This document shows positions 5,887 through 30,158 of a DNA stretch of 64,000 nt, one piece after another (position 1 is the first letter of the stretch; each line of letters opens with the position of its first letter). The stretch comes from Eremomyces bilateralis CBS 781.70 (Eukaryota). A model generated the notes under the pieces. The model made no database searches. It saw only the letters and a list, made by a program, of their open reading frames with translations, and was not told the origin of the DNA. A program made the translations under genes and the position numbers. The stretch is taken from assembly GCA_010015585.1 (NCBI GenBank), contig ML975149.1. The stretch is one strand, 5' to 3'.

Positions 5887-6454
5887 TTGCTGCCCGGTAG
5901 CATCCTGTCAACTGTCGACTGTCGAGGCTGCAACTGCGCGTGAATATTGATAGTTAGCGCGTCGCTTATGTAGCACACTCAATACTAATGAACATAGACG
6001 TGTTCTATCCCAGAATTGCTGCTAATTCGGGTCAGACTTAGGGAGGATGGTGTTGAGCTACAGTAGGCTGAATGAAGAATTGAGTGACAAGAATTGAAGA
6101 TGTTTACAGCGGTTTGTCACATGGCACTCCGGGTGTGCGGGTGGCGTTTGCGTCTTCTGCCCCCATCCTTGATCGTTCAGGCGTTAAGTAATCATTGTAT
6201 TAAGTTAACTAACTAGAATGTTTCCTCTCGTTAGGTAGTTTCCATATTCCATAGTTACTCTAAAATAACCTCTTACCTTGGCTTTTCCGCGGAACGTCAG
6301 ATGCATTATTAGTTCAACCTATTGTTTTGATACTAGAGCTGCTAGGATTTGGGGTGATTTGGCTGTCCTGTACCAGTTGCAGCACTTAATTGACAACCCG
6401 AGCACATCCAACTTCAGCGAAGTGCCTGATGCATACCTCTAGTCGAGACATGCG

Positions 6455-9086
6455 ATGATGCGAAACACTTGCAGCTACTGCCAACGTCACTTCAAGCGTG
6501 CAGAACACCTAACGAGGCATCTTAGAATACGTCAGTAAATCACCCCATGGAGACGCCACATTCACTCCAATCAACATTATTCTCTCCCATCTCTGCCAGC
6601 CCCCTGATGTGTCTCTGCAGATACCAAGGAACGACCGTTTAGATGCGGTTGTGGAGCCACCTTCTCTCGCCGTGACCTCCTTACTCGGCACTGGCGAATC
6701 TCTAAACATGGCGACGATGAAGTATCACCACCTGAATACGCCCGGCGTGGACCAGCGGTCGACTCCCCCGTCAACGACGGGCTTCCTGCAGAAGATGGGT
6801 TCCTCGCGCAGGCGCATTCCCTGGATATTCCAACTGGGGCCGTCATCGATAGTAAGCTTGATACGAGCATCGTCAGCCTGGTCGTGGCTGACTGTAGGCA
6901 TGGCAAAAAGACCATCATGATGATGGTCTCGAAGTCTTCTTGGAGTTTCTAAACTTTATGGACGGCGTGGGCCTTCCTGCCCATTGGTCTCCTACCCGTG
7001 GCCTTGATTTGGATGCCGCTGGCAGCGTTCGCGACTCCGAAGGCCCGGATGCGCTCGATGCCAATGGCATTGGTACTCCTTTTAGTACCTGGCTGCCCTC
7101 CGCTCCTGCCGAGAATGAAGCAAGCTGCGCTATTCCGTTGAGAGGTACGTTTAATAGAAACCGCTTCTCCCACGACTTTGCCCTAGGTTCTTCTTTTGCC
7201 CAGGAGACTCTGAACCTTGGACGGCAGAGGGAATGCGCCAAGACCTATGCTGAAATCTATACGGGCTAGATTCTGTCGATTCTGACACGAGCGGGCGGAC
7301 GTATGTCGTCACCGAAGCTGAGCGGAGCTTACTGTTCTTGTCTCTTGAGACTTTTCGGTCATCTATTCCGGATTTTAAGCTGCCATCTCGCCACGCCCTT
7401 ACGCGATACCTAATTTCATTCTTCGAAGGGTTCCATTCACACCTCCTATTCATTCACGAACCTACCTTCAAACCATCAGGCACGCCCCTGGAGCTCACGC
7501 TGGCCATGTGCTCAGCTGGCGCGCAGTATTGCTTTGAAAGGAGAGTTGCAGAACAACTATTTCATGCAGCAAATGCAATCGTCTTTGCGAGGTTGAGATA
7601 CGAAGAAACGAGCTTTGGGCCGCAGATTCGTTCCTTGATCCGCCTGCACAATTCATCTCTAAGAGAAGATGTGCCATCTGCACGACGTGGCGACCCGTGG
7701 GCTCCGCTTGACACCATCAAGACTCTACTAATCTTGGTTGGATACGCGACCTGGGAAGTCGTCGGCTTGCTCCAGCAATCATTTGCCCTTCGACAGTTGC
7801 TCGTTCATTGCCTTCGCGACATTGGTCTTGCGGAGGAGAGTCACCAGCCCACGAGCCCTGGCTCAAACGGTTTAACATGGGAACAGTGGATAGAGAAAGA
7901 ATCTGCGCGACGCTCTAAGCTGATTGCATTCTGCTACGTAAACGTGCATAGCATAGCTTACGATGTTCACCCAATGCTCTGGTGTAGCGAGCTGCACTTG
8001 CGACTGCCATGCTCTACCGACCGATGGCAAGCTCGAAGTGCCTCTCAATGGGCGAATCTCGAGCGTCAAGATGATAAGGACCAGATGCTCTTTCAGGAAG
8101 CCTTATCGCTCCTGTTGTACAGCACGGATGAAGCGATTACGATACAGCCGAATCCAAGTCCCCTTGGGAACTACGTTTTGCTGCATGCGCTCTTGCAGCG
8201 AATCCACATTGTTCGCGAGCTGTCACTCCACGCTAGCTGTGGGGCGGCAACCATGCCTGCTCCTGAGCTTCAGATTATTGGGTGAGTTAATAAACATGCC
8301 CCCAGCAGATTATGAGCCTATGAAGGCTAATGGGTTAAGACGCGGCCTGCGCTGCTGGACTTTAATGTGGCAACAAGCTCCAGAATCGGGATTAAACCCA
8401 AACAACAAGAGCGGCCCTGTGCCATTCACATCCAGTGCGCTCCTTGGAATCGCCTACGTCCGGTTGGCGCTGAATATTGGGCCGTTCCGTCACCTCGAAC
8501 TTCGCGATCCGAGTTCAATTGCCCTGGGATTAACTCGACTACCCAACATCGAGCGCAACGATAGCCTATTCTCCGCCCTGCTTTATTCCACTCACGCTCT
8601 CAGTGTCCCTGTAAGACTAGGTATAGATCGAGTAGCGCGAAGCCAGGCATTCTTCTGGAGCGTGCAACACGCTCTCTCGGGGTTTGAATGCGCAGTCTTT
8701 CTCGCCAAGTGGCTTTGTTCCTTGCACACTCCCTCTCAAAACCACACCGCAATCCGTAAGTCACACTGGCACCTTGTCGGCGATTCTACATCTGAAAGGC
8801 ACAATGCCTAACTACAACATGGTTTGCAGTATTCGAGGATCGAATTTTACTCTGGATCCGCCGCATTGTGGAAGAAGCTTACGCCGTGGTCGACTTTGAC
8901 GAACCCGACCTTGAAGTGCCGACTGATCCCTTCTCTCTCGGGCTTGTTGTCCTGATGATCTGGTCTCGATTCTTTCAAGGCAACACTCAGTGGCCATTCA
9001 TTGTGATCCTCGGAAAGAGTCTGCAAAAACATGGCGAATCTCTTCAAGAGCGGAGACAGTTTGAGGGTCAAAGCCTTCTTCAATGA
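6455..9086 (+). CDS. C2H2 zinc-finger (Adr1/AmdX-like) + fungal-specific transcription factor domain protein; multi-intron
   Basis: MMRNTCSYCQRHFKRAEHLTRHLRI/HTKERPFRCGCGATFSRRDLLTRH across the 6532-6620 intron; Fungal_trans domain FFEGFHSHLLFIHEPTF...WIEKESARRSKL...LRLPC. Confidence 0.88.
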
Positions 9087-9435
9087 CTTTTCTGACCCAC
9101 CCGCTGAAGGAAGTCCCATAGATTTACTCCGGCCTACAAACACGCCTAGTCACTCTCACATCCGATCCAACAGCACCACTCCGCTCTCTGCCCTCTCGCA
9201 CAACGCCTAAAATTATGTGGTCCGCAGAAAAACCGCATATCCTTGTGGAACGCCAGAAGAATAAAACCGCCAACGTGCATCTGAAGCCGCGCCTCATATC
9301 CATAGATATCAAGCCCCACTAGGCAGGGCGCATATAATCACCTCTCACATACGATAGAATACGAAGATACGCAATGCCGATTCAAGCTTCTGTTTCGGAT
9401 ATCGAAGAGAAGAAGATGTTAATTTCTCGACGCTT

Positions 9436-10455
9436 CTACGTGACGTGCAAACCTCCGGTAATGAGCATCTCACTACCAGTCATGTACGCACTGGCGTCGC
9501 TTAGCAGGTAAACCGCAGCCCCTTTCAAGTCGGTACGGTCCCCCATCCGCTTCATGGCTGGTGCGTTTACAAATACCTCGCCTACATCCTTCCTTTGCTC
9601 AAGAAGGGCCATACTCATATCCGTCAAGATGTATCTACTGACGATTAGCGACTATGGGTCAACGGTTATACCGGAAAGAGGACTTGCCCTGGGGAGATAC
9701 TATTCACCCTTACACCCATACTTGCCAGCTCAGACCCCAGCTGATGCGTCAGACCGAGGACAGCCCCCTTGCTCGAAGAATAATCGCTCGTCAGCTGGAG
9801 TTTGGGGGCTTCATGTGCCGAGACAGAGGCAATATGGACAACCGATCCAGCGCCTGACGTTAGAGCCGAACTTCGCCTCCCCTGCTTCACCATCTGCCTC
9901 ACAGCCAACTGAGTTGCAAAGTAGGTGCCGAAGACATTGATCTTGAAGGTGCGCTCCACGTCTCTCGGATCTCGATCCAAGAAGGCCTGGTCGGGGCATA
10001 CGCCTGCCGCTGTGATCCTGAAAGCATGGTCAGCTTACTGTTTTCGTGAGACCTAAGATCCCATACAGGCCGTCTATTCGTCCAAAATCCTTGACAATCT
10101 TATCAAAGGTTGCCTGCAGTTTCTCATAATCGGTCACATCTGCTCTGAAAAAGGCAGACAGGTTAGCATGACCTCGGGGACCATAGCTTACTGGCCTTTT
10201 TGAGACGTACTGATAGAACTCAGCCTTGCATATTTCTTGCAGTTTCTTGTAATGCTCGTGGGGTTGCGGCGCCGCATCGAGGATCGCAACCGATCCCCCA
10301 GCTTCTGCAACGGCAAACCCAAGAGCTAGGCCAATTCCCCGAGCACCGCCCGTGATTACGACAACACGGTCTTTCAGAGAGAAGAGGTCGAAAACAGGGT
10401 TGTGGAGATATGAATCTGGGTTTGTTGGAACAGTAGTTTCAGATTTGGCCGCCAT
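9436..10455 (-). CDS. Short-chain dehydrogenase/reductase (polyol/sugar reductase-like); 3 introns
   Basis: [32 protein letters not shown] catalytic motif, [21 protein letters not shown]. Confidence 0.9.
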
Positions 10456-18198: not shown

Positions 18199-20686
18199 AT
18201 GGCTCTCCGCCCAACTAATTCGTTGGGCCTAGTCCCGTATCTCGATTCGTCAGATTTTGATGGAAATGAGGAGGGAAGTGAGGAGGAAAGTGAGGCTGGA
18301 GATAGTGATATGGAGGAGAGCTTTGCGACTGCAGACGAGGAGATTAGCGATGAGGTCGACCAAGATATAGAGGACTTACCTAACTCCTTCTTCAACGACT
18401 TCCTAAATACGATACAGGAGGACTATATCAATCTTTCCGCCCCACCGGTCCAGCCTGATCAAGGGTGGAAAGATATCGACGATGCCTACCAATATCTCCT
18501 CCAATACGCGCGTGATCGGCATTTCGGTATCCGTAGAGGTAAGACCTTTACGGATAAGAACTGGGATGAGAAGGATCGTACCTGGTTCGAGTGCGATCGG
18601 TCCGGAAAGCCTCCAAAAATCCCGTCCTTAATCCGCAAGACTGGAAGTTCGAAAACCGGCTGTGGATGGGTGGTTAAGACCAAACTCGACCGTAATACGC
18701 GGCGTTGGGTTATTCATACCATGGTTCTCGAGCATAACCATAGCATTGTCTCCTCGGCATCAGCTCACCGCAGCCACCGTAAATTGACTGTGGAACAGAA
18801 GCAGGAAATTGACAAGATGACAATGGCTGGATGTACGCCAAAACAGATCTATAACGCCATCCTATCCGGCACAGATTTGATCAGGAGAGATATATATAAT
18901 CGACGCGACTTTTTGAAGCTCCACCGCTTGAAAGGACAGTCCTATATTCAAGCACTTCTCCGGGAACTTAGCACGCGAACCGACCTAATCACCGGCCACC
19001 AATATGACCCAGAAACGAGGCGGATCACTCACCTTTTCTTCGCTCACCGGCGGTCCTTGGAAGTACTCCAAAACCAACATGATGTCTTGATCTTGGATTG
19101 TACGTACAAGACTAATAAGTACAAGATGCCTCTCTTCCATGCCGTTGGAGCAACGGCATCAAAGACAAACTTTGATATCGCGTTCGCCTTTATGAAGGGA
19201 GAGACCGAAGACGACTATATTTGGGTATTAAGTCAGCTCAAAAGTGCTATAGGTATACTTCTTCCACGCCTAATACTCACGGATAGCGAGGACGCCTTGA
19301 TCAATGCACTCGAGCTCGTTTTCGCCGGGATTCCGTGCCATCTATGTAATTGGCATATCTTTATGAATGTTAATACCAATCTCACGCGAAAGTTCGTACT
19401 TCCAAGACATCTTGATATCTTATATCCGACAAAGGCGCAAAGGGAGGACATGTCACAGGAAAATTACCTTAGCTATATCTGCCCTTCTACTAGCCTCCTA
19501 GTAGGGGCGTCCCTTTTTGGGGATTTAGCTTAGTTGGTTACATTTGACAGGACATGAGGAAGCTCCGTGCTCAATTTCTGAAAGATTTCAAGAAGGTAAG
19601 TGGCTCTAAAACCGCGGAGATCAAAGTGAGATCGAGCTATGAGATACGTACGTTGATATCTCTGGAAATGGCTATTTTGGAGACTCCGCGGTCCTAACAC
19701 ATACTTTGAGTTCGGGAATTTTGCTAACTATACGCTCACAGGTCGCTTACGCGAAAACTCCTAATGACTTCGATTCTGCGTACAATAAGCTCAAAGACGC
19801 CCACCACGACCAACAACCCACTTTCGACTATATTGACCGATATGTCCTTCCTAAACGTGAGCGATTCGCCGCGGCGTGGACCGACCAACGAATCAATTGG
19901 GGGATACGGTCGACACAGGGAGGAGAGAGCGCTCACGGCGTGATCAAGCAGCACGTTACAGAAGCAAATGGAGATTTGATGAATGTGACTACTCTGATAC
20001 TCCAGGCGGTCGTACAGAATGCCAATGAGTCTATTGCCGCCAACGATACGGCCTCTATTAGGACTTTAACGCGGTGGAGATGTAATTCAGTCATCTCTGA
20101 CGACCTCCTCGACAAGGTCTCCAAACCGGCCTTGAATTACCTGATGGAGCAGACTCAATTAGCTCGCGCGACTCTCCTTACCCGCCCTATACCTCTCCAG
20201 CCTTGTACAGGGACTTTTGCTAAATCGAAGGGCCTACCGTGCTCCCATACTATTAGCGAGAACCTCCGGCGGAATAGAGACTGGCAGATTCCCCTTTCCT
20301 TGATTGATGAGCACTGGCTATATTTCAGGAAGCCTGTCTTCGGTCCTGCACAGGATCCATTCCGCCATCTTCGAGAGCCTGCAATTCCTATCTCTCAGCG
20401 GACCGTTCGCCAGCCAGAGCTACAGGGCGTTGTCTTGGTCTCTCCATCTGGTGAACTCCAAGCCGCAGCCTCGCAGTCTACGACTACACCGCATGGCACG
20501 TCCTCTCATCGCGAAGAGGTTGGATTTGAAACCGCAGATCGAGAGGCTAATCGTGCTCCACGCCCACAGCCTATACCAAGGCAAAGGCGTGCGAGGGGAG
20601 CAAATCAAAGGCGTGGTACGGGAGCGACTCGCGGAGCGATCCAAAGGACCTCAGATGGTGGAGTTTTTATGACTCTCGACTTATGA
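18199..20686 (+). pseudogene. MULE transposase (FAR1/WRKY-like zinc finger, DDE domain, SWIM finger), interrupted by a 99-bp insertion; intron 19596-19741
   Basis: CDRSG...KTGCGW...LEHNH; LILDCTYKTNKYKMPL; LTDSEDAL; CHLCNWHI; GESAHGVIK; CTGTFAKSKGLPCSH. Confidence 0.9.
19451..19549. mobile_element. 99-bp TG...CA insertion (solo-LTR-like or miniature element) with 5-bp TSD
   Basis: Begins TGTCA, ends TGACA, flanked by GGACA (19446-19450 and 19550-19554); removing it plus one TSD restores the transposase frame REDMRKLRAQFLKDFKK. Confidence 0.85.
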
Positions 20687-21236
20687 TATATCTTTTATAC
20701 TACACGTTCATTTCTCTATTATATATCTATCTCTACATCACCATTTCCGCGAGTTCTGCAGTTGCACGTTGAGCGAGTTGGTGGTCACAGAAATGAGTAG
20801 GCTAACCATTTTTGGCTACGTGTACGTCTAGTAATTGGGTGCGTGTACGTGTAGAAACTGGGTGCGTGTACGTGTAGAATACCCTACGTGTACGCGCAGG
20901 ACCATCCATTAAATCCCATTTCGGCCTCGGTGTTCCCAAAATTTAGACCCCGACGCTCGGGAAAAGAGCCGAAGTTTAGGGTACCGAGCCTTTTGACCGG
21001 GTTTTCTGGCCTACTGTCCAAGCCAGGGACCGAAACTCCAAATGAACAAGATATTAATGACATTTCATGTGGGGGGACTTCCCCGGCGTCGGGCTTGATG
21101 CTATCTTTCTATTACAAAAATGCGATTCTTTGCACCAAAATACCTCAGTATTTGGCTTTGATCTAATGGCGGGAAACAGCCAGACGTCTGTAGATATTCA
21201 CGAAGGTTTCAAGACTTACTCGTCGCGTTCAGGTTA

Positions 21237-22556
21237 CTACGAAGAATCCTCCAATCCAAAACTCTTGAAAATAGCTGCATTATGCTCGCCCACCGCTGGC
21301 ACCGGGTCCATACGCGCTCTCAAGCTGTCTTCTGTTCCATGTGACGGGACACCCGGCGGAATTAGAGCTGGAACACGGCCGATCGGAGTGTCCACCTCCG
21401 TCCAGCGGCCTCGTTCACGAAGCTGTGGATGATCCCATACTCCTTGCATGTCGTTCACGTTAGCATTGGCGATGCCCGCGCTGTCCAGCTGCGCGACCGC
21501 TTCTGCGGCTGTCAACTTCGAGAATGCGTCATAAATGATGTCTCGTAGTTCGGTGCGGTTCTCTGTGCGCTGGGAGTTGTTGCAGAAACGAGGGTCCTTG
21601 ACGAGGTCGGCATTGTCGAGTAGTTGGACGCAGAACGTAGTCCATTCTCGTTCGTTCTGGATTCCGAGCATGACAGATTGGCCATCACCTGTTTCGAATG
21701 GACCGTATGGGTATATAGCTGCGTGGGAGGCGCCGGCGGGCGTCGGGCCAGGAGCCTTCTTGTGCGTATAGTACATGGGAAAGCCCATCCATTCCACCAT
21801 GCTCTCAAGCATAGAGATATCAATCTTACAACCCTGACCCGTTTTCTGGCGTTGCAAAATCGCGGCTAGGATGTTGGTGTACGCATACATGCCAGCTGCA
21901 ATATCCGCAATGGAGATGCCGACCTTTGCTGGCTCGCTCCCCGTTCCGGTGACAGAAAGCATGCCCGACTCGCTCTGAATGAGTAGGTCATAAGCTTTCT
22001 TGGTACGGTACGGGCCATCCTGCCCGTACCCGGAAATGTCGCATACGATCAACTTTGGGTTTTCGGCTCGTAGAGCTTCGTAGGAAAGTCCCATTCGCGC
22101 CGTCGCACCAGGAGCCAGATTTTGAACCAAGACATCCGCTTGTCCCAGGAGTTTCTTCAACATTCCCAGCTCTTTAGGTTTTTTCAGGTCGAGCGCTAAA
22201 CTCTCCTTGGATCGATTCGTCCACACAAAATGAGAGGCCAGCCCATCCACTCGCGTATCATAGTCCCGTGCGAAATCGCCCACTCCGGGACGCTCAACTT
22301 TGATCACTCGTGCTCCCATGTCCGCCAGTTGTCTAGTGCAATATGGTGCTGCAATTGCTTGCTCGATACTAACGACTATTACACCCTCTAGAGGACGAGA
22401 GGCGCTCGACGGCTGCGATGAGTTGCTTCTTGGATGGCATGTAGATGTAAAGTGCTGAAGTCGAGTGGCGTAGCCCAGCATAGGCATTGCGGGTTGATAT
22501 GCTCTTGCCTTGCCGAAAAATGTGCGCATAGCGGCAACATTCCAGGGAACGTTCAT
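21237..22556 (-). CDS. ictA: Family III CoA-transferase (CaiB/BaiF), itaconyl-CoA transferase IctA-like, probably mitochondrial; start codon uncertain (22556, 22529 or 22487)
   Basis: PLEGVIVVSIEQAIAAPYCTRQLADMGARVIKVERPGVGDFARDYDTRVDGLASHFVWTNRSKESLALDLK; GISIADIAAG (catalytic Asp); closely resembles Aspergillus IctA as I recall it; Arg/Ser/Thr-rich presequence. Confidence 0.8.
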   Translation of the reverse strand: MNVPWNVAAMRTFFGKARAYQPAMPMLGYATRLQHFTSTCHPRSNSSQPSSASRPLEGVIVVSIEQAIAAPYCTRQLADMGARVIKVERPGVGDFARDYDTRVDGLASHFVWTNRSKESLALDLKKPKELGMLKKLLGQADVLVQNLAPGATARMGLSYEALRAENPKLIVCDISGYGQDGPYRTKKAYDLLIQSESGMLSVTGTGSEPAKVGISIADIAAGMYAYTNILAAILQRQKTGQGCKIDISMLESMVEWMGFPMYYTHKKAPGPTPAGASHAAIYPYGPFETGDGQSVMLGIQNEREWTTFCVQLLDNADLVKDPRFCNNSQRTENRTELRDIIYDAFSKLTAAEAVAQLDSAGIANANVNDMQGVWDHPQLRERGRWTEVDTPIGRVPALIPPGVPSHGTEDSLRARMDPVPAVGEHNAAIFKSFGLEDSS

Positions 22557-23282
22557 ATCTTCGACTTCTGAAGAGTCGGAGCCAGCGGCACTGGATGAGG
22601 CTGCACAACAGGTCAAAGGATTCCGGAAATGGTTTCAAACTGGAAGATAATTCTATGGCCGAAGATGGTTGGTATTGACTTCAGAGTATTGTTTCGTGAT
22701 GCCTGCGACACATAACATCGGGTTCCTAACCAAATACTATAAGGCTTTCGACCAGACTGGGATAATATATGACTGTGCACTCTGGCTGTATGGAGACTGT
22801 GGAGTAAATTACGATCGTTAGGCTCGGAATCTTCTGAAATGCAATTTCGGATAGACGACCCGGATCCCGCAGGCAGCCGAATTGAAGGCATACAGCCGAG
22901 CGAGCCTCCGATATGGTTCTCGCTCGCTCCTCAATCGTAACCGCATGTCAGGCATATCGGCTACCCTCGGCTATTGATATAGTGTCAGTCAACGTCAGCG
23001 GAGAGCTAGGGGGGCGGTCTTCGGAAGAGGAACGCAAGGAAGGCAGGAGTCTCGGGTTCACTAGTAAGCAGGCTATTCATCCATCATAGATTGAGACAAT
23101 GCAACGTGTATTTGCGCTTTCGGAAAGCACATTGGACTGGGCCGTGGGTGTTCACCCTGGGGATATCAAGGAAAATGAACTAGGCAGAGACGCTTAGAAC
23201 TTAGACGGCAAGATGATCAACGATCCCGTAATCAAGGCTGTACGGGGCTTGATGGGCCAAGCAAAGGCATGTGAAATCGATA

Positions 23283-23686
23283 ACGTATTCCACAAGCGAG
23301 CGGCGCATACAAGCGAGCGGCGCACCCCCTTTTACTAACAAATTCGGTTTCAATATCTCAACAACCACTGAATAATATAACCTGAAAACTTGGAATTATG
23401 CTTTCCTAGTCATTCCTAGCTTCATATTAAAATATCAGAGCACTAGCTTGTATAGATATCGAGATACCTACTTCTTGACAAGATTTATGGGCCAAACCTC
23501 TATATCTTTATAAATGTTCGTGCCAGAGCTCTGAAAATTCAATAGTAAGCTAGGAATGACTAGAAAAGTATGATTCCAAGTTTTCAGGTTATATTATTCA
23601 GTGGTTGTTGAGATATTGAAACCGAATTTGTTAGTAAAAGGGGGTGCGCCGCTCGCTTGTATGCGCCGCTCGCTTGTGGAATACGT
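23283..23686. mobile_element. Non-autonomous pogo/Fot1-type (Tc1-mariner) MITE, 404-bp near-palindrome
   Basis: TA TSD (23281-82 and 23687-88); ACGT termini; first 114 bp perfectly inverted, imperfect to about 165 bp and beyond; internal direct repeat ACAAGCGAGCGGCGCA x2 in each TIR. Confidence 0.93.
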
Positions 23687-24217
23687 TATACATAAGTTCT
23701 ATGAGAGATGGAAGGAATGATAGCTTCCCAGGAAACCAAATTCTTGGTCTGCACGTGCAGGGAAGTCTCCCAGCCAAACACACTCATGATCAGGTTACCG
23801 TTGGATGCTCTTGTATCATGTATGCTCTTACTACGTGCCTTCAAGCTCGATTGCTACATCAATTGATGGTTATGTGGAAGAAAAGTCCAGGGGTTAACAA
23901 TTTAACATGAACAGGATGTGGCGGTATGGACATGCTCCGACTAGCGCACGCGAGTGGGTTTGGCCATCATCCATTCTCCGTCTCCCCTACACAGTATACA
24001 CACCCCCCTCTTCGGGACAATGCGATAATACTGGATCTTTCTTGTCGGCTGCTACTATTCACAGATCTGCGAAGGTTAGGACACGTATCTTTGCCCTTTA
24101 GTCACCGTCGACATTGAAGCATGCGCTTGCTGCATGCTCAGTAAACCCGGATATCTTGTAGAAGCCTCCGACTGCACCCAGATGTAACCAAAGCGAAATC
24201 ATTCGTTGTTCAGCAGC

Positions 24218-26761
24218 ATGCCTCCAGAAAGTGCTGACACCGCGCCATCCCTGCGACGGCGGCGCGCGAAAATGGCATGTAAAACATGCAACTCGCGCCG
24301 GGTGCGCTGCAATGTCCTCGAAATGAGACCTTGCGCCAACTGCGCAGCAGCTGATATCGCCTGCGAGCTACTACCTTCCAGGAGAGGAAAGTGGGTGCAA
24401 GAGAAGTTCGCGGATATGAATCTAGACTCACCTTGACCTACCTATAGATACCAACGGAAGAAACCCCAGAATACATCACCATCTGTCGCCCGATCTTCCC
24501 GATCTGAAGCCCTTTCACCGAGTAGCCCACAGCCTCAGTTCTCACCTAGCGTGGGCGCGGCCGGGCTTCCGAGTATTGAGCAACGGCATTCAGTTGCCTC
24601 CCACACCGGTATCCCTTCTCCACAGGCCTCTCCACAGGCCGGCGGAATACAAACACATGACGTCGGACCGCAAGCCAACGCGTCGGAGGTCGCCCAGGCG
24701 CAAGCCGCCGAAACGCATATCGTTCAAACGCAAACTACCGAAACGCAGGCCATGGACAGGACCTTGTTCTTTGGCGAGTCAAACTTCTTAACCTGTGTTG
24801 CCGGCGAACGATTCGGCTTGCCGCAGCCCTCCAGTGTGTCCACACAACCAAAGAACAGACTCTCCTACCCGATTTCGGATGCCATCAACCTCAAGGCTTC
24901 AAAAATGTACGCGGCCAGGAATCCCCAAATAAGCTCCTTGAGACACGAATATCTGCGCAGCGAGGGAGCTTTCACTTATCCCGAGCTACAAGATAGCTTA
25001 CAAGTGCTACGAGCATATTTCCGCTGGTTTCATCCATGTTTTCCAATTCTCGACAGGTCCGAGATAGCGGGGATGGTCAAAAGTGGTGAGATATCTCCAC
25101 TGCTGTACCAGGCTATCCTGTTCGTTGGAACCAGCTATTGCGACGAGGAGACTGTTCACCGTATGGGTTTTAGAGATCGCCCCGAGGCGAAAGCCAAGCT
25201 CTATAATCGGGCCAGGCTCTTGTTTGATGCCGATTGGGAGTCGAATAAGGTGGCAGTTCTCCAATCTTTGTTCTTAATGAGCTTCTGGCGAGCTGGGCCC
25301 CTCAACGAGAAGAATTCCAGATACTGGCTTGGAGCAGCAATTGGCCTTGCTCAGACTCGCGGGTTTCATAGAGCGTAAGTTTTCGTGTGGAGCCGGTTCC
25401 CGGATATCTGTTAAGAATAAGCTGCAGGGCACAAAGTACCACAGTAGGGGCAAAGCAAGCTAAAATGCGGAGACGGATATGGTGGTCCATCTATGTATAT
25501 CTCTCAACCCTCTGCATACACCTCCGGCTAACACCTTCCCCAAGGTCCGAGACCGCCAATCTTCAGCATCACTAGGCTTGCCAAGCCGAATACGAGATGA
25601 AGACTGTGATGTTCAAATGCTCAGTCCTTTGGATCTCGAGGAAGAGGAGCCCGAGGGATCCGCCTCGGATATCTTTGGCAATAACGAACCTGGCCATATT
25701 CTGTATGCCCTAGAGATGGCCAAATTGGCCAAGTTGCGTACGTGTGATGGTATTTGCCGACTCCAACACAACGATTTAACATTTGAGGACAGTCGGGAAG
25801 ATCATAACCAACCAATTCACCCCTGGCGACAGCTACCTTGATAAAGACGAAAGATCGAGACTTTCCGAGGCGCTGGTACTGTGGAAGTCCGAGTTGCCAG
25901 AAAACATGCGTGAATGCAACTCCGAAAGTAGACCTGGCATGATCTGGACCTACTTGCTCCATCTAGCATACAAGTTAGTTCCCCCTCCCCAAAACAGCCA
26001 TGCTAATGACGACATGAAGTAACCTACATATCTACCTTCACCGACGAGCATATGTCAGACCTCTCAACGAGGGTGACACGCAGGCTGGTCAAGTCGCTCT
26101 TCAAGCGGCGCGCCGGATTACTAGAATCGTCGAAGACATGTTGTCGCAAGACTTGGTGAGGTTTGGTCAACTGCACGTGTAAGTAGCGGAGTATCCCGAG
26201 ATATTATGAGGAGAATCTAACCATCTGACTAGAATCACAAGTCTATTCGCCTCCCTTTGCATCCACACCATCAGTCTCCAGCGATCCAAGGACACCACGC
26301 GGAGGCTGGCAGAGCACCGAGCTCAAATGTGCCTGCTCGGTCTAAAAGAGATCCAGAAGTACTGGGAGGTCAACAACCTCGTCCTCGAATTATTCTTCCA
26401 GTACTTGGATGAATCAACGGCGAAGAGGCTTCGTGCATCGGAATTAGAACCCGTATCCGAAGCCGTGCCGGAAAATAATCCCGCACTCCAACCAGTTCCA
26501 AGTCAGCAATCCTTAGGACCGAACTCGTCACTCGACGAAGTAGCCGTATCGCCACTTGACCATGCTGGCCTACCTCATAACCAAGAGTTATCACTAGGCA
26601 CGCATCCTGCATTCAGTGAGGATACACTATTCCTCGATATGCCACAAAACCTGTATCAAAATAGCACGGCAGATCCGTATGCGTTTTTAATGGATTCGCA
26701 AACACCCATAAATGATGGACTCGATATGCAGGGCTTGCAGTTTCTTCAGCGCTGTCTTTGA
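24218..26761 (+). CDS. Zn2Cys6 binuclear cluster transcription factor with Fungal_trans domain; multi-intron
   Basis: ACKTCNSRRVRCNVLEMRPCANCAAADIAC; YFRWFHPCFPILDR; RRRIWWSIY-VRDRQSSASLGLPSRIRDEDCDV. Confidence 0.92.
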
Positions 26762-27230
26762 GACGACTGGCAGTACTCGACACACTGGAATGGAATTTTG
26801 CATGGAGCGGCAATGGTGTGGTCAACCTTGGAAGCAACTGGAGCCACCATTACTGCCGCAGCCTTGCGCCCGAACTCGAGTAGGATAGAAGCGAGCATTG
26901 GGTTTCTACCGTTCATTGCGAAGCATTGAAATGCTTACAACTTCAGTTGGATTACCAAGTACCGCCGTCACGTGCCAAGAAACCGAGTCAAATTGGCTAC
27001 TCGTTCTGGTTTTGGTGGTGGAATTCGACCTCCGGGCACTGGTGCAAGGTCCGGCTCGATCACCAGCATGTGCCAAGAGGCCGAGTCGAGTCGGCTATAA
27101 GCCCAAGGCTCTGATGCATATATCCGGCTGTACGTACCGAAGGACATTACACTGTACGACTTATCGTTTATAATTGTCCATGTTTCGCCTTTCAACAAAG
27201 GATCGACTTTTTCAATCTCACCAAGTTATT

Positions 27231-28577
27231 ATGTTTTCACCGACGGCGAGAAGTCTTTTGCGGCTAGGCCACTCCCAACTCTCCTCATGGCGATCTCTCC
27301 AGTCCCTTCCGGCCGGTGCTTGCCGCATGTTTTCAATTCTGACATCTCACAGGCACCTCATGGAGACCACAGGCTTCACTGAAACCCAATTGACGGTCCG
27401 GGAAGCCGTTTCACAAGTTTGCTCTCAGTTCCCCAACACCTACTGGCAGGAACGTGACCAAACGGAGCAAGATCCTAAAGAATTCCATGCTGCCCTAGCA
27501 CAGGACGGGTGGCTTGGCGTAGCACTCCCGGAGGCGCTTGGCGGATCAGGATTGGGGATCTCGGAGGCGACGCTCATGATGCAAACCATCGCCGAGAGTG
27601 GTGCAGGCATGGCCGGCGCACAAGCCATTCACGCCAATGTCTACGCAACGCAGCCGTTGGCGAAGTTTGGTACCAAGAGTCAAGTGGAGGGTACAATACC
27701 CAACATCATATCGGGTGAATGGCGCGTTTGTTTTGGAGTGACGGAACCGAATGCCGGCCTGGACACGTTGCGGTTATCCACCACGGCAACCAAACTGACC
27801 GATGGCTCCTATCGCATCGACGGGCAAAAGATCTGGATCACATGTGCTCAGGTGGCTTCGAAAATGATTCTTTTGGCAAGAACCACCCCACTAAACGAGG
27901 TCAAGAAACCCAGTGAGGGACTATCTCTGTTCTGTATCGATCTGGACCGCGATCAGCCGGGCCTAGACATGCGCAAGATTAAGAAGCTTGGGGGAAGAGC
28001 CGTCGATGCGAACGAGGTGTTCTTCGAGAACTACGTTGTTCCCGAGAATGCGCTGATCGGGCAAGAGGGGCAGGGTTTCAAAGTTATTCTACACGGGATG
28101 AATGCAGAACGATGCCTTCTCGCTGGCGAGGCGCTTGGTCTTGGCTACGCAGCGATCAACAAAGCTGCTCAATATGCTCGCGAACGCGTCGTCTTCCGAC
28201 GCCCCATCGGGCAGAACCAGGGCATTGCACACCCGTTGGCCGACGCATACATGAAACTCGAGGCCGCCAAGCACGCGACTTACCACGCCGCCAGACTCTA
28301 CGACGAGAGCGGGAAGCAGTTGGATGGCCATGGCAGCGGCATAACTCAAGAGTCGGTGGGCGTGGCGTGCAATTCCGCCAAATATATGGCGGCTGAAGCC
28401 GCATTCAATGCCTGCGAGAACGCAGTTCTCACGCATGGGGGAATGGGATATGCAGCAGAATATGATGTCGAACGGTGGTTCAGGGAGAGCCTCGTTCCGC
28501 GAATCGCGCCGGTGAGCCGCGAGATGATCCTCAACTATATCAGTGAGAAGGTGTTGCGGTTGCCGCGGAGTTATTAG
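27231..28577 (+). CDS. Acyl-CoA dehydrogenase, intronless, predicted mitochondrial presequence
   Basis: CFGVTEPNAGLDT, GQKIWIT, GMNAERCLLA, RVVFRRPIGQNQGIAHPLAD, HGGMGYAAEYDVERWFRE. Confidence 0.93.
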   Translation: MFSPTARSLLRLGHSQLSSWRSLQSLPAGACRMFSILTSHRHLMETTGFTETQLTVREAVSQVCSQFPNTYWQERDQTEQDPKEFHAALAQDGWLGVALPEALGGSGLGISEATLMMQTIAESGAGMAGAQAIHANVYATQPLAKFGTKSQVEGTIPNIISGEWRVCFGVTEPNAGLDTLRLSTTATKLTDGSYRIDGQKIWITCAQVASKMILLARTTPLNEVKKPSEGLSLFCIDLDRDQPGLDMRKIKKLGGRAVDANEVFFENYVVPENALIGQEGQGFKVILHGMNAERCLLAGEALGLGYAAINKAAQYARERVVFRRPIGQNQGIAHPLADAYMKLEAAKHATYHAARLYDESGKQLDGHGSGITQESVGVACNSAKYMAAEAAFNACENAVLTHGGMGYAAEYDVERWFRESLVPRIAPVSREMILNYISEKVLRLPRSY

Positions 28578-28656
28578 CAAATCTAGCGTGTTAGTAGGTA
28601 CTCTCTGTGCGTCATCTAATGTGGCTCAGCTGAAAGAGCTATTGAATTAATGTTGA

Positions 28657-30158
28657 GATGGAACAATCACCATTTCTTCGACACGATATAACCGCCCCGA
28701 CCTCTATTTCCAACGGCACGATAACGGCGAGGCCTTCTACCCGTTCGATCATATTCTCCCCGCTTCAATCTCCTTGAATGTGCTGCGCGAGGTCCTGGTT
28801 TTGGCAACCGATATCCACTGTCTTGCTTGTAAATGCCTGGATGAGTTTCTTCGACGGACGCGACAGCTGAAGCCGTATACATTACTGAAACCAGTGACAT
28901 TAAGCCGAACCGGGAATGAGTGTCTGCGCCAAGCGGACGAGGCATGGCATCAAGCCGAGAGGTACGAGCCCGTCGATGTTGGTCCGCCATCGTGGGTGGA
29001 ACTGGAACGCCTGACATGGGCGCTCTGGCGATGGCAGTTGCTCTCCATCGGGCGAGAAGATCCGGGTGATCCGTTGTCTTTACAACAGCTCTCTTCGGGC
29101 AAATCTAAACCAATCCACTCGGACGAGTTCCTCTCTGCAGTTCAGGATTGCCTCGCGGACCTTTACGAACGGTCGGCATCCAACTCGGCGGGAGATCACC
29201 GACAAGATCAATTCAACCACTTGCCATTCGTGCGGCCCATGCCTGAAAAAGCGGTTCAAGACCTTCCCCAGCCTGAGAAGGACGGACACTGGTCATACAA
29301 TTATCCTCGAGTGGCGTTCTGCGGCGGACAATATACGTTCAATGATATGTCGATGTCACCTGATTCACCACTACAGAAGACTACCTTTGGCCCTTATCGA
29401 CGCTTGGGCTTCGGGATCTGGGATCATAAAAGGCTTCATGCATTGGGTATGGTAAGAATCCCCCAGATATCCGAGTCTTACACTGCACACTTGGATTCCA
29501 TCCACAGTGGATATGGTCCGAACCGCGACCAGGTTTGGTTTTCTTGGCTGAGCATCATCCCAAAAGAGGAATTGTATGCGCTGGAAAACCTTACCGCCTA
29601 TGGCTGGCCCTGTTTGTAAACGATGAGGTGGATTGGTATACGCGTCTCGTTTACCGGCAGTACGGTCTCCGTCTGACACGAGAAAAACGATTCATGTTGC
29701 CTCCGAATAAATTTGAGGCTATCAAAGTCACCTACCGAGAGCTTTTCCTCAAGGTAGGAGTGCGCGCCGTCCATGACGCGGCGGTCACGGGAGAGCTCTT
29801 TGAACTGGCGCAACGGCATTTGAAAATCGAGGAGTGGATGCAGTTTGTGATGTCGAATAAACCGTTACGTCCAGCATACATCCGCCAAATGAGACGCGAG
29901 ATTAGAGAGCGTGAGTTGAGAGTCAATCTCAACTTGAATAGGGCGTTTTATGCTCCTATCATTGATCCATCGGTCCATGATCACCGTATATCCAGATCAA
30001 GAGTGAACACACCATCAGTGGAAAAGTACAAAGATACAGTGTATGATTTTAAGGACAAGTCTCCCAATCACGAATGCGGAAGCATGAGTTACGCAGCAGG
30101 TGTCAAACCCGCTTTCCGCACCCCCATATCTAGGAACACGCCCGCTGCAAACCAGTAG
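28657..30158 (+). pseudogene. 5'-truncated or frameshifted fungal hypothetical protein gene
   Basis: Long open frames 28657-29619 (PPSWVELERLTWALWRWQL, FGPYRRLGFGIWDHKRL) and 29535-30158, with no plausible ATG or promoter; abuts the ACAD stop codon. Confidence 0.45.

What the first reader, a model, noticed from the sequence alone, without database searches (positions are those of the whole stretch)
21237..28577. Candidate fungal itaconate/methylsuccinate catabolic cluster: IctA-like CoA-transferase + own Zn2Cys6 regulator + acyl-CoA dehydrogenase
Seen: three adjacent genes; the CoA-transferase is divergent from a Zn2Cys6 TF, which is followed by an intronless ACAD, and both enzymes carry mitochondrial-type presequences. 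Known: Aspergillus IctA activates itaconate to itaconyl-CoA, and the Pseudomonas aeruginosa itaconate operon carries an acyl-CoA dehydrogenase alongside ict/ich/ccl. Inference: this cluster activates a branched C5 dicarboxylate (methylsuccinate or itaconate) and oxidises methylsuccinyl-CoA towards mesaconyl-CoA under a dedicated regulator. I do not know of such a regulator plus ACAD module characterised in fungi. The hydratase (IchA) and lyase (CclA) genes are not in this window.
Basis: partly seen in the sequence, partly recalled or inferred. Interest (0 to 1): 0.72.

Follow-up and report, generated by a model that had tools for sequence, protein, structure and literature searches.

The report
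Fungal itaconate CoA-transferase, regulator, dehydrogenase cluster
Three neighbouring fungal genes (an itaconate-activating CoA-transferase, a zinc-cluster regulator and a mitochondrial acyl-CoA dehydrogenase) stay together in distantly related moulds and probably form a regulated module for breaking down itaconate-type C5 dicarboxylic acids.

Summary
In detail: CoA-transferase (21237-22556, -), Zn2Cys6 factor (24218-26761, +, spliced) and intronless ACAD (27180-28577, +), all covered by RNA contigs.

- **CoA-transferase.** It is 71% identical to the named A. terreus itaconyl-CoA transferase ATEG_06299 and falls in its clade, nested among bacterial Ict.
- **Regulator.** It is the ortholog of A. 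niger An07g00750, which lies beside ictA. In published data that gene rises from 0.5 to 28 FPKM in itaconate-producing strains.
- **Synteny.** Consecutive accessions and locus tags show regulator+ictA in Aspergillus and Penicillium. They show regulator+ACAD in Fusarium and Diaporthe. All three occur together in Colletotrichum and in a rearranged metagenome locus with unrelated flanks.
- **ACAD.** It is not an ortholog of the bacterial itaconate-operon methylsuccinyl-CoA dehydrogenase. Identity is 43%, and it belongs to a sister clade whose bacterial members pair with other CoA-transferases. It shares that enzyme's isovaleryl-CoA-dehydrogenase-type catalytic glutamate.

Verdict: a real, conserved module for branched C5-dicarboxylate catabolism. 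The regulator link is well supported. The ACAD substrate, most likely methylsuccinyl-C4-CoA, is inferred only.

The parts
21237..22556 (-). ictA orthologue: family III CoA-transferase, 439 aa, intronless. It has a basic N-terminal extension of about 54 residues (putative mitochondrial presequence).
   Evidence: Pfam PF02515, E 2.5e-109. 71% identity to A. terreus ATEG_06299, named itaconyl-CoA transferase. 64% identity to a P. aeruginosa PA0882-type Ict. Placed in the IctA clade. An RNA contig covers 21147-23310 without joints. N-terminal composition.
22557..24217 (.). Divergent intergenic region between the CoA-transferase and the regulator. It holds a foldback inverted repeat (23280-23466 / 23503-23689).
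   Evidence: Inverted repeat with 187-nt arms, 90% complementary. It is a single copy in the window. The RNA contigs end at 23310 and start at 23875.
24218..26761 (+). Zn2Cys6 / fungal_trans transcription factor, 739 aa as annotated, 7 exons. It is the orthologue of A. niger An07g00750.
   Evidence: P0277 is 100% identical and carries PF00172 + PF04082. Exon map. RNA joints at 24390/24448, 25374/25428, 25494/25545, 25737/25793 and 26178/26233. The A. niger orthologue cluster holds ANI_1_1430064.
26762..27233 (.). Region between the regulator's stop codon and the probable ACAD start. The regulator's RNA contig runs to 27130.
27180..28577 (+). Mitochondrial-type acyl-CoA dehydrogenase, ORF of 465 codons, intronless. 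The probable start is M19 at 27234 (447 aa).
   Evidence: Pfam PF02771, PF02770 and PF00441. 84-86% identity to fungal orthologues. 43% identity to a PA0879-type Mcd. 50-55% identity to another proteobacterial ACAD group. Tree. Presequence comparison.
28107..28109 (+). Codon of Glu310, the putative catalytic base on helix G (isovaleryl-CoA dehydrogenase type).
   Evidence: Glu in 58 of 58 rows of the superclade. It falls at position 254 of 1ivh and 261 of 8w0t by equal-length HMMER ranges. That these are the catalytic residues is recalled. PMC5798300 states that the IVD base lies on helix G.
28509..28511 (+). Codon of Pro444, standing where canonical ACADs have the catalytic Glu.
   Evidence: The window's 'IAPVS' aligns with 'IYEGT' of 5lnx and 'IGEGT' of 1ws9. 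Pro in 58 of 58 rows of the superclade.
22835..22842 (+). 8-mer TGAAATGC, 279 bp upstream of the CoA-transferase start (weak lead for a shared cis element).
   Evidence: There are only two copies in the 64 kb window, against 2.8 expected. The 8-mer is also in the 223-bp ACAD/CoA-transferase spacer of L056. My own rough estimate is about 0.07 shared 8-mers by chance.
26927..26934 (+). Second copy of TGAAATGC, 307 bp upstream of the probable ACAD start.

Best explanation
This is a conserved Pezizomycotina gene module for the mitochondrial catabolism of branched C5 dicarboxylates (itaconate and its reduced form, methylsuccinate). The proposed steps are:

1. The Zn2Cys6 factor responds, directly or indirectly, to itaconate-type acids. 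It activates its neighbours and probably the unlinked ichA. This step is inferred.
2. IctA transfers CoA from succinyl-CoA to itaconate. By analogy with bacterial Ict, it also transfers CoA to methylsuccinate, giving the C4-CoA esters. The family and orthology are shown; the activity is taken from the literature on the orthologue.
3. The ACAD oxidises the saturated ester methylsuccinyl-C4-CoA to mesaconyl-C4-CoA and passes electrons to ETF. It uses a helix-G glutamate, as isovaleryl-CoA dehydrogenase does, which leaves room for a substituent on C3. This step is inferred.
4. IchA and CclA are encoded elsewhere. They convert itaconyl- and mesaconyl-C4-CoA to (S)-citramalyl-CoA and then to acetyl-CoA plus pyruvate. 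This is the published pathway.

Functionally this mirrors the bacterial five-gene itaconate/methylsuccinate cluster. It is built with a different type of regulator and an ACAD from a sister lineage.
For: **IctA orthology**
- 71% identity to ATEG_06299. Its 90% cluster also holds a record named 'itaconyl-CoA transferase [A. terreus]'.
- The fungal clade (99*) is nested in the Ict clade (100*) that holds the P. aeruginosa and Burkholderia itaconate-cluster enzymes.

**Regulator**
- Its A. niger orthologue cluster contains ANI_1_1430064 = An07g00750, the gene next to ictA An07g00760.
- The Hossain 2019 table lists it as 'Fungal transcription factor', rising 0.52 -> 11.4 -> 19.0 -> 28.2 FPKM in step with ictA and ichA.

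**Synteny: regulator + CoA-transferase**
- Consecutive accessions in A. luchuensis, A. tubingensis, A. neoniger, A. vadensis, A. eucalypticola, A. ibericus and A. costaricaensis.
- Adjacent locus tags in three Penicillium species.

**Synteny: regulator + ACAD**
- Adjacent tags in Fusarium oligoseptatum and Diaporthe amygdali.
- Fused gene models carrying both domain sets: P0300, P0313, P0322, P0336.

**Synteny: all three genes**
- All three are consecutive in Colletotrichum sp. SAR11_59 and SAR 10_75. In C. fructicola they carry tags g13675, g13677 and g13678.
- In Xylaria acuta and X. flabelliformis the CoA-transferase and ACAD lie 5-6 accessions apart on one contig.
- L056, a fungal metagenome contig, has the ACAD and CoA-transferase head to head with a 223-bp spacer, then the regulator. 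The flanking genes are unrelated to the window's.

**Bacterial precedent**
- Of 79 metagenome loci with an Ict 59-67% identical to the window protein, 42 carry a PA0879-type ACAD upstream. That is 22 of the 45 with at least 3 kb of upstream sequence.
- That ACAD is a proven (RS)-methylsuccinyl-C4-CoA dehydrogenase. Ict is active on methylsuccinate (PMC12290011, sections 12 and 14 read).

**ACAD**
- It lies in the same 99* superclade as PA0879-type Mcd.
- It shares Glu on helix G and Pro at the canonical Glu position (58 of 58 rows).

**Location and expression**
- Both enzymes have basic, acid-poor N-terminal extensions.
- All three genes are covered by RNA contigs.
Against: - The ACAD is not inside the characterised Mcd clade. 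It is sister (98*) to proteobacterial ACADs of unknown substrate. Their partner CoA-transferases are only 27-30% identical to IctA and fall far outside the Ict clade.
- No NCBIfam equivalog is reached. Best scores are 250 against a cut-off of 750 for the CoA-transferase and 220 against 640 for the ACAD.
- Itaconate breakdown itself needs no ACAD.
- In the published A. niger lists, no gene annotated as an acyl-CoA dehydrogenase is among those induced at least four-fold. Many entries there are only 'hypothetical protein'.
- 0 of the best 120 ACAD relatives are from Aspergillus or Penicillium, against 49 of the best 120 CoA-transferase relatives. The ACAD may therefore be absent or more divergent where IctA is best studied.
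- In Xylogone the three genes lie on three contigs.
- No convincing shared promoter motif was found. CCTCGG is not enriched and the shared 8-mer is marginal.
- Induction by itaconate or methylsuccinate in this organism was not tested.
- The single RNA contig of the regulator keeps one annotated intron. If that were the main form, it would truncate the protein.
Confidence: 0.55

Rival explanations
1. The module and the regulator are as described, but the ACAD acts on a different IctA product. Candidates are another 2- or 3-substituted succinyl- or glutaryl-type CoA ester, such as ethylsuccinyl-, 2-methylglutaryl- or a hydroxylated itaconate-derived ester. The cluster would then widen the substrate range beyond itaconate and methylsuccinate.
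For: - The ACAD groups with bacterial ACADs of unknown substrate.
- Their operons hold TTT-type solute-binding proteins, cupins, MaoC or crotonase hydratases and, in one case, SDR plus a thiolase-like protein.
- An HpcH-type lyase lies near the Hyphomicrobiaceae pair.
- The helix-G Glu only indicates room for a substituent on C3.
Against: - The only partner conserved next to the ACAD in fungi is the Ict-type transferase.
- The characterised bacterial relatives of that transferase prefer itaconate and methylsuccinate.
- The only characterised member of the ACAD superclade is a methylsuccinyl-C4-CoA dehydrogenase.
Confidence: 0.2
2. The ACAD does not carry out net oxidation in this pathway. It acts on itaconyl-CoA itself, for example as a 3-enoyl to 2-enoyl isomerase (itaconyl-C4-CoA to mesaconyl-C4-CoA). 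That would help or replace the isomerase half-reaction of IchA and remove toxic itaconyl-CoA.
For: - Itaconyl-C4-CoA is a beta,gamma-unsaturated thioester.
- Some ACAD-fold enzymes are known to catalyse such double-bond shifts through their catalytic Glu (recalled, not tested here).
- The tight head-to-head arrangement with ictA in L056 (223 bp) fits an enzyme that takes the IctA product directly.
Against: - No evidence from any call points to isomerase activity.
- Bacterial Ich already performs the isomerisation.
- The sister enzyme Mcd is a true dehydrogenase.
Confidence: 0.08
3. The cluster is not specific for itaconate-type acids. The transferase would be a general succinyl-CoA:dicarboxylate CoA-transferase like mammalian SUGCT. 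The factor would be a CTF1/Far-like regulator of short-chain acid catabolism. The ACAD would serve a general short or branched acyl-CoA oxidation route. Itaconate would be only one accidental substrate and inducer.
For: - The closest solved structure is human SUGCT (232 bits).
- The best NCBIfam model is succinate-glutarate CoA-transferase, though far below its cut-off.
- Source annotations call the factor's orthologues 'cutinase transcription factor 1 alpha'.
- The ACAD is conserved at 75-86% identity across Ascomycota and some Basidiomycota, as expected of a housekeeping enzyme.
Against: - The transferase is nested in the bacterial Ict clade, whose genes sit in itaconate clusters.
- Deleting ictA in A. 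niger stopped itaconate bioconversion (passages of PMC6320622).
- The regulator's orthologue is nearly silent (0.5 FPKM) without itaconate production and is induced with it.
- The Far-type CCTCGG motif is not enriched here.
Confidence: 0.12
4. The three genes are neighbours by chance and share no function.
For: In Xylogone the three orthologues lie on different contigs.
Against: - Pairs or the full trio recur in Dothideomycetes, Sordariomycetes and Eurotiomycetes.
- The gene orders differ and the flanks are unrelated.
Confidence: 0.03

Closest known systems
Aspergillus terreus / A. niger IctA (ATEG_06299, An07g00760), itaconyl-CoA transferase of the IctA-IchA-CclA pathway
   Same: - Family III CoA-transferase with 71% identity and a place in the same starred clade.
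- It has an N-terminal extension of mitochondrial type.
- The same Zn2Cys6 gene lies next to it.
   Different: - In Aspergillus the published pathway genes are described as unclustered. No ACAD or regulator has been assigned to the pathway.
- Here, and in Colletotrichum, Xylaria and L056, an ACAD is linked as well.
Pseudomonas aeruginosa / Cupriavidus necator itaconate-methylsuccinate cluster (Ich-Mcd-[VOC]-Msi-Ict-Ccl with a LysR regulator, ItcR)
   Same: - An Ict-type transferase (64% identity) is linked to an ACAD of the same superclade and to a dedicated, divergently placed regulator.
- The logic is the same: acid to CoA ester, then to mesaconyl-C4-CoA.
   Different: - The regulator is Zn2Cys6, not LysR.
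- The ACAD belongs to a sister clade (43% identity).
- There is no MmgE/PrpD isomerase, hydratase or lyase in the window.
- The proteins carry mitochondrial-type extensions.
Proteobacterial 'CoA transferase + ACAD (+ cupin, TTT binding protein, enoyl-CoA hydratase)' operons of unknown substrate (Roseomonas, Comamonas, Cupriavidus, Hyphomicrobiaceae)
   Same: - These hold the closest prokaryotic relatives of the ACAD (50-55% identity, sister in the tree).
- They show the same Glu/Pro active-site pattern.
   Different: - Their partner transferases are only 27-30% identical to IctA and lie outside the Ict clade.
- Their function is unknown.
Isovaleryl-CoA dehydrogenase (IVD) and long-chain ACAD
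   Same: The catalytic Glu sits on helix G rather than in the J-K loop. Position equivalence comes from HMMER ranges and the principle from PMC5798300.
   Different: - Similarity is only about 150 bits.
- They belong to a different clade and act on monocarboxylic substrates.
Human SUGCT (succinyl-CoA:glutarate CoA-transferase)
   Same: It is the closest solved structure of the transferase (9br7, E 1.5e-67). It is also mitochondrial and belongs to family III.
   Different: It is much more distant than bacterial Ict, and its physiological substrates differ.

Membership tests
Family III CoA-transferases (CaiB/BaiF, PF02515) | Full-length match to the family profile above the gathering score | tested here: met
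   366 bits against a cut-off of 23.3, profile positions 1-366 of 366.
Fungal IctA (itaconyl-CoA transferase) orthologue group | Groups with the characterised A. terreus ATEG_06299 and A. niger protein to the exclusion of other family III transferases | tested here: met
   Fungal clade of 14 rows at 99*, including P0122 (ATEG_06299) and P0129 (A. niger). 71% identity.
Fungal IctA (itaconyl-CoA transferase) orthologue group | Same conserved neighbour as A. niger ictA (the Zn2Cys6 gene An07g00750) | tested here: met
   The window regulator's A. niger orthologue cluster holds ANI_1_1430064. Consecutive accessions with the transferase occur in seven section Nigri species.
Fungal IctA (itaconyl-CoA transferase) orthologue group | Succinyl-CoA:itaconate CoA-transferase activity | not testable with these tools
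   This needs an enzyme assay. The primary paper (Chen 2016) is not held.
Bacterial (RS)-methylsuccinyl-C4-CoA dehydrogenase (Mcd, PA0879 type) | Falls inside the clade of itaconate-cluster ACADs | tested here: not met
   43% identity. The tree places the fungal ACADs with another proteobacterial group (98*). Mcd-type rows form a separate 98* clade within a shared 99* superclade (quick search, SH-aLRT support only).
Bacterial (RS)-methylsuccinyl-C4-CoA dehydrogenase (Mcd, PA0879 type) | Encoded next to an Ict-type CoA-transferase | tested here: met
   Seen in the window, in L056 (223-bp spacer), in Colletotrichum and in Xylaria. In bacteria, 42 of 79 loci.
Bacterial (RS)-methylsuccinyl-C4-CoA dehydrogenase (Mcd, PA0879 type) | Active-site layout: Glu on helix G, no Glu at the canonical J-K loop position | tested here: met
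   E310 and P444 in the window. The same pair occurs in all 58 superclade rows, including L050. The feature is shared by the whole superclade, so it does not discriminate within it.
Bacterial (RS)-methylsuccinyl-C4-CoA dehydrogenase (Mcd, PA0879 type) | Oxidises methylsuccinyl-C4-CoA to mesaconyl-C4-CoA | not testable with these tools
   This needs an enzyme assay.
NCBIfam equivalogs (succinate-glutarate CoA-transferase, succinyl-CoA:mesaconate CoA-transferase, acryloyl-CoA reductase AcrC, glutaryl-CoA dehydrogenase Acd) | Score at or above the curated cut-off | tested here: not met
   Scores against cut-offs: 250 / 750, 209 / 700, 220 / 640 and 174 / 470.
Zn2Cys6 fungal transcription factors | Zn(2)-C6 DNA-binding domain plus the fungal-specific TF middle domain | tested here: met
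   PF00172 + PF04082 on P0277. PF04082 on exon 2. The Cys pattern is visible in exon 1.
CTF1 / FarA-FarB fatty-acid regulators | Target promoters enriched in CCTCGG (motif recalled) | tested here: not met
   36 sites in the window against 37.4 expected. One lies in the divergent promoter and none upstream of the ACAD. The name 'cutinase transcription factor 1' on orthologues is only a source annotation. Direct comparison with CTF1 or FarA was not done.
Mitochondrial matrix proteins | Cleavable basic, acid-poor N-terminal presequence | tested here: inconclusive
   Composition and a conserved '...FS.T.SRRLMETTG' junction in the ACAD orthologues fit a presequence. No predictor or experiment was used, and the 5' end of the ACAD mRNA is ambiguous.

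The most novel reading that the evidence does not exclude
- The Zn2Cys6 factor would be the first eukaryotic transcriptional sensor for itaconate-type acids, conserved across Pezizomycotina.
- The linked ACAD would be a eukaryotic methylsuccinyl-C4-CoA dehydrogenase, recruited independently from a bacterial lineage other than Mcd.
- Fungi would thus have assembled by convergence the same itaconate-plus-methylsuccinate pathway as soil bacteria. The ACAD would be kept in many saprotrophs and plant-associated fungi but possibly lost in Aspergillus and Penicillium.
Probability: 0.35. Interest if true: 0.7.

Novelty: new variant of a known kind. Interest (0 to 1): 0.58.

Why it matters
- **Relevance of itaconate.** It is an industrial platform chemical made by fungi, an antimicrobial and an immunometabolite.
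- **What is missing.** Fungal degradation is known only as three unlinked enzymes. No regulator is known, and no route for the reduced form, methylsuccinate.
- **The regulator.** A conserved regulator next to ictA gives a direct engineering target, because switching off itaconate re-consumption in production strains becomes possible. It also gives an entry point to how eukaryotic cells sense itaconate.
- **The ACAD.** The linked ACAD suggests that many fungi, like soil bacteria, also use methylsuccinate. It provides a candidate eukaryotic enzyme for that step.
- **Evolution.** It would be a clean example of the same pathway logic built from a non-orthologous regulator and a paralogous dehydrogenase.

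Tried and rejected
- **Whole genome of the window.** None is held. Whether ichA and cclA occur elsewhere in this genome could not be checked.
- **Earlier findings of the scan.** Three look-ups (place/relatives, sequence, words) returned nothing.
- **Metagenome scan with the CoA-transferase.** It returned 79 bacterial-type loci and only one fungal locus, L056. Broad fungal synteny therefore had to be read from accession order, locus tags and contig lengths.
- **Far-type motif CCTCGG.** It is not enriched.
- **k-mer sharing between the window promoters and the L056 spacer.** It gave only one 8-mer (TGAAATGC). My own rough estimate is about 0.07 shared by chance, so it is kept only as a lead.
- **Bacterial promoter/terminator scan.** It is not meaningful for a eukaryote and was ignored.
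- **ESM Atlas search with the ACAD.** It gave only generic bacterial ACAD clusters.
- **Carboxylate-binding residues.** I tried to map the ACAD onto the equivalents of Arg87 of GDH and Arg252/376/421 of PdMCD. This was not possible because those alignments are not printed and no model coordinates are returned. It was dropped.
- **Chen 2016 (A. terreus IctA biochemistry).** The paper is not held. It is known here only through Hossain 2019 passages and the database name.
- **RNA runs.** The listing had no holder on record as RNA. The one run listed proved to hold spliced contigs when laid. Its depths are per contig and were not used to rank genes.
- **Joint 27129/27353.** It rests on a 29-letter side and is treated only as a hint.
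- **Pfam scan of L011.** A stop codon lies inside the matched ACAD stretch, so that row was left out.
- **Not used.** Structure prediction, fold search and complex prediction would not discriminate between the rival explanations.

Full report
**What is in the sequence**

The window is fungal DNA. The regulator encoded at the centre of the finding is 100% identical to a protein that a public source names from Eremomyces bilateralis CBS 781.70, a Dothideomycete.

- **CoA-transferase.** A 439-codon ORF on the minus strand (21237-22556) matches the family III CoA-transferase profile over its whole length.
- **Regulator.** A seven-exon gene on the plus strand (24218-26761) encodes a 739-residue protein with a Zn2Cys6 domain and the fungal transcription-factor middle domain.
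- **ACAD.** An uninterrupted 465-codon ORF (27180-28577) has the three acyl-CoA dehydrogenase domains.

Contigs of one public run skip five GT..AG introns of the regulator. They cover the transferase (21147-23310) and the ACAD body (27353-28800) without joints. These are therefore spliced RNA, and all three genes are transcribed in at least one condition.

Both enzymes have N-terminal extensions over their bacterial homologues. The extensions are rich in Arg, Lys, Ser and Thr and nearly free of acidic residues. The same holds for all 13 ACAD and 10 transferase orthologues that I inspected. The ACAD orthologues also share a conserved '...FS.T.SRRLMETTG' junction. This fits mitochondrial presequences, but I ran no predictor. 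Comparison with orthologues favours M19 (27234) as the ACAD start.

The rest of the window holds a MULE transposase on the left and housekeeping genes on the right (prolyl-tRNA synthetase, a CCT chaperonin subunit, Bud3, Dcc1, Mlh1). No MaoC-type hydratase or HpcH-type lyase was found among 63 of the 69 kept ORFs of at least 110 codons in the window. (69 of 143 such ORFs were kept after removing overlaps. The six left out lie in the cluster or the MULE element and were scanned.)

**The CoA-transferase is an IctA orthologue**

- It is 71% identical to A. terreus ATEG_06299. The 90% cluster of that protein also holds a record named 'itaconyl-CoA transferase [Aspergillus terreus]'.
- Passages of Hossain et al. 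2019 (PMC6320622) state that ATEG_06299 and A. niger An07g00760 are IctA. They also state that deleting ictA in A. niger stopped itaconate bioconversion. The primary biochemical paper is not held.
- The protein is also 62-65% identical to bacterial CaiB/BaiF proteins. One of these lies in the P. aeruginosa cluster MaoC - ACAD - VOC - MmgE/PrpD - CoA-transferase - CoA ester lyase, which is the itaconate cluster. A Burkholderia version has the same core.
- In a maximum-likelihood tree of 47 rows, the window protein sits in a fungal clade of 14 rows (99*) with ATEG_06299 and the A. niger protein. This clade is nested in a 100*-supported clade of 29 Ict-type rows (quick search, SH-aLRT support only).

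**The regulator is the itaconate-co-induced neighbour of ictA in A. niger**

The best A. niger relatives of the window regulator form a 90% cluster. That cluster contains 'hypothetical protein ANI_1_1430064 [A. niger CBS 513.88]'.

In Hossain et al., ANI_1_1430064 is An07g00750, the gene beside ictA (An07g00760 = ANI_1_1432064). Their table lists it as 'Fungal transcription factor'. Its expression rises from 0.52 FPKM in the parent to 11.4, 19.0 and 28.2 FPKM in strains making more and more itaconate. This parallels ictA (13 -> 376) and ichA (7 -> 233).

The paper does not discuss this gene. The locus tag occurs in no other paper of the searched library. Searches combining itaconate, ictA and transcription-factor terms found no characterisation.

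**The three genes are co-conserved**

No fungal genome collection was available.

*Regulator next to the transferase*
- A. luchuensis, A. tubingensis, A. neoniger, A. vadensis, A. eucalypticola, A. ibericus and A. costaricaensis have consecutive accessions.
- Penicillium paradoxum (N7457_007638/39), P. fimorum (N7463_010946/47) and P. alfredii (NUU61_007547/48) have adjacent locus tags.

*Regulator next to the ACAD*
- Fusarium oligoseptatum (CEP52_002476/77) and Diaporthe amygdali (J7T55_007114/15) have adjacent tags.
- Four gene models fuse the regulator's domains with ACAD domains (P0300, P0313, P0322, P0336).

*All three genes*
- Colletotrichum sp. SAR11_59 (KAI8313483, -84, -85) and SAR 10_75 (KAI8184129, -30, -31) carry all three consecutively. 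C. fructicola has them at tags g13675, g13677 and g13678.
- In Xylaria acuta and X. flabelliformis the transferase and ACAD are 5-6 accessions apart on one contig.

*Direct DNA evidence: L056*
- L056 is a stretch of a 689-kb metagenome contig. Its transferase is sister to a Penicillium protein (100*), and its regulator is 56-57% identical to the Penicillium ictA-neighbour factors.
- There the ACAD (80% identical, one intron) and the transferase are head to head with only 223 bp between start codons. The regulator follows, convergent.
- The genes flanking the trio in L056 are an MFS transporter, an SGL-like protein, a pyridine-nucleotide oxidoreductase, a sugar transporter and a DyP peroxidase. 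They are unrelated to the window's flanks. The trio therefore travels as a unit and in different gene orders.

*Counter-example*
- In Xylogone sp. PMI_703 the three orthologues lie on three contigs.

**The ACAD is a relative of the bacterial itaconate-operon ACAD, not its orthologue**

Gonner et al. 2025 (PMC12290011, sections 12 and 14 read) showed three things:
- PA0879 and its C. necator homologue are (RS)-methylsuccinyl-C4-CoA dehydrogenases (Mcd).
- Ict also activates methylsuccinate.
- The five-gene cluster is as much a methylsuccinate cluster as an itaconate cluster.

The window ACAD is 43% identical over its full length to a PA0879-type protein and 42% to the Burkholderia one. This is far closer than to any solved ACAD (best 190 bits).

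Its closest prokaryotic relatives, at 50-55% identity, are different:
- They come from Hyphomicrobiaceae, Phenylobacterium, Roseomonas, Comamonas, Cupriavidus, Sphingobium and roseobacters.
- They sit directly beside a family III CoA-transferase that is only 27-30% identical to IctA.
- They often lie with a cupin, a TTT-type binding protein and enoyl-CoA hydratases. In the one Hyphomicrobiaceae-type locus whose neighbours I scanned (L007), an HpcH-type lyase lies nearby.

In a tree of 77 rows (quick search), the fungal ACADs (15 rows, 100*) are sister to this group (98*). Mcd-type rows form their own 98* clade, which groups with Chloroflexota, Rhodospirillales and haloarchaeal proteins. All of these share a 99* superclade of 58 rows. 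No NCBIfam equivalog is reached.

The bacterial precedent for the linkage is strong. Of 79 bacterial-type metagenome loci holding an Ict 59-67% identical to the window protein, 42 carry a PA0879-type ACAD (at least 70% identical to it) upstream on the same strand. That is 22 of the 45 loci with at least 3 kb of upstream sequence, and 20 of the 34 shorter ones.

**Active-site layout**

- In all 58 rows of the superclade, the position of the canonical ACAD catalytic glutamate is a proline. In the window this is P444: 'IAPVS' aligns with 'IYEGT' of 5lnx and 'IGEGT' of 1ws9.
- In the same 58 rows a glutamate stands on helix G (window E310, 'NAERC').
- Across the alignment the two glutamates are mutually exclusive. 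62 rows have only the helix-G Glu, 11 have only the canonical Glu, and 4 have neither.
- By equal-length HMMER ranges, E310 corresponds to position 254 of isovaleryl-CoA dehydrogenase 1ivh and to position 261 of long-chain ACAD 8w0t. That these are the catalytic bases of those enzymes is recalled.
- PMC5798300 (passages) states that in IVD a helix-G glutamate replaces the canonical one, and that this widens the pocket for a beta-branched substrate.

Methylsuccinyl-C4-CoA is beta-branched, with both methyl and carboxylate on C3. The layout therefore fits this substrate. It is shared by the whole superclade, however, so it cannot separate methylsuccinyl-CoA from other 3-substituted substrates.

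**Most likely mechanism**

The regulator responds to itaconate-type acids. It switches on ictA and the ACAD, and probably the unlinked ichA. IctA makes itaconyl- and methylsuccinyl-C4-CoA from succinyl-CoA. The ACAD oxidises the saturated ester to mesaconyl-C4-CoA. IchA and CclA then yield acetyl-CoA and pyruvate.

- Shown here: family membership, IctA orthology, the conserved linkage, the orthology of the regulator to the co-induced A. niger gene, and transcription of all three genes.
- Inferred: the ligand and targets of the regulator, the mitochondrial location, and above all the ACAD substrate.

**Evidence against this reading**

- Itaconate breakdown itself needs no ACAD.
- No gene annotated as an acyl-CoA dehydrogenase is in the A. 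niger lists of genes induced at least four-fold. The annotation there is poor, and ichA itself is listed as 'hypothetical protein'.
- None of the best 120 ACAD relatives is from Aspergillus or Penicillium, against 49 of the best 120 transferase relatives. The ACAD may be missing or more divergent in most Aspergillaceae, although the Penicillium-like L056 has it. This would parallel the bacterial split between three-gene (itaconate only) and five-gene (plus methylsuccinate) clusters.
- No convincing shared cis element emerged. CCTCGG is at chance level. The 8-mer TGAAATGC occurs only twice in 64 kb, 279 and 307 bp upstream of the two enzyme genes, and once in the L056 spacer. It was found post hoc, and I estimate about 0.07 such 8-mers by chance.

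**Novelty**

- Already known: IctA, the three-enzyme fungal pathway and the bacterial itaconate/methylsuccinate cluster.
- Not in print in the searched library: a fungal regulator for this pathway, and any fungal ACAD tied to it.

The finding is best classed as a new variant of a known kind. It is the fungal counterpart of the bacterial extended cluster, built from an Ict orthologue, an ACAD from a sister lineage and a Zn2Cys6 regulator in place of a LysR one. Supplements of the bioRxiv preprints and the Chen 2016 paper could not be seen and might bear on this.

Noticed in passing
window 23280-23689: A foldback inverted repeat with 187-nt arms (90% complementary, 36-nt loop) and tandem 16-mers in each arm. 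It lies in the divergent promoter between the transferase and the regulator. It is a single copy in the window. The RNA contigs stop at 23310 and resume at 23875, and one loose end lies at 23688. It may be a MITE-like insert, or the contig breaks may be assembly breaks caused by the repeat.
   Followed up: partly
window 18199-20686: A MULE/FAR1-type transposase ORF (444 aa) lies immediately left of the cluster. It is followed by a 235-aa ORF with no family match. Together they look like a Mutator-like element.
   Followed up: no
window 25974-26019: The single RNA contig of the regulator keeps this annotated 46-nt GT..AG intron while skipping the other five. If kept, the reading frame stops at 26022 and gives 529 instead of about 740 residues. 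The contig also uses an acceptor at 26233, whereas the annotated model uses about 26243. This may be intron retention or a choice made by the assembler.
   Followed up: partly
window 27101-27382: The 5' end of the ACAD mRNA is ambiguous. The high-depth contig begins at 27353. Upstream there are a low-depth unspliced contig and a joint 27129/27353 (GT..AG, but only 29 letters on one side). That joint would remove all three candidate start codons of the presequence and leave M61, near the mature N-terminus, as the first in-frame AUG. This hints at a possible isoform without a presequence.
   Followed up: partly
L054 (Cupriavidus oxalaticus plasmid), 3418-9459: An operon encodes a thiolase-like lipid-transfer protein, an SDR, a CoA transferase, an ACAD (51% identical to the window's), a MaoC dehydratase and a crotonase. 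From memory, this layout resembles the benzylsuccinate beta-oxidation (bbs) genes. It suggests that the ACAD superclade may be dedicated to substituted succinyl-CoA esters.
   Followed up: no
L009 and L010 (haloarchaeal contigs), about 6450-9185: Haloarchaea carry an ACAD of the same superclade (44-45% identity). It lies divergently adjacent to a family III CoA-transferase that is 39% identical to the fungal IctA. This is another independent ACAD plus transferase pairing, of unknown substrate.
   Followed up: no
window 7254-8282: A second fungal-specific transcription-factor domain gene lies about 13 kb left of the cluster. It sits near an amidase, a polysaccharide deacetylase and SDR fragments. 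It appears unrelated to the finding.
   Followed up: no
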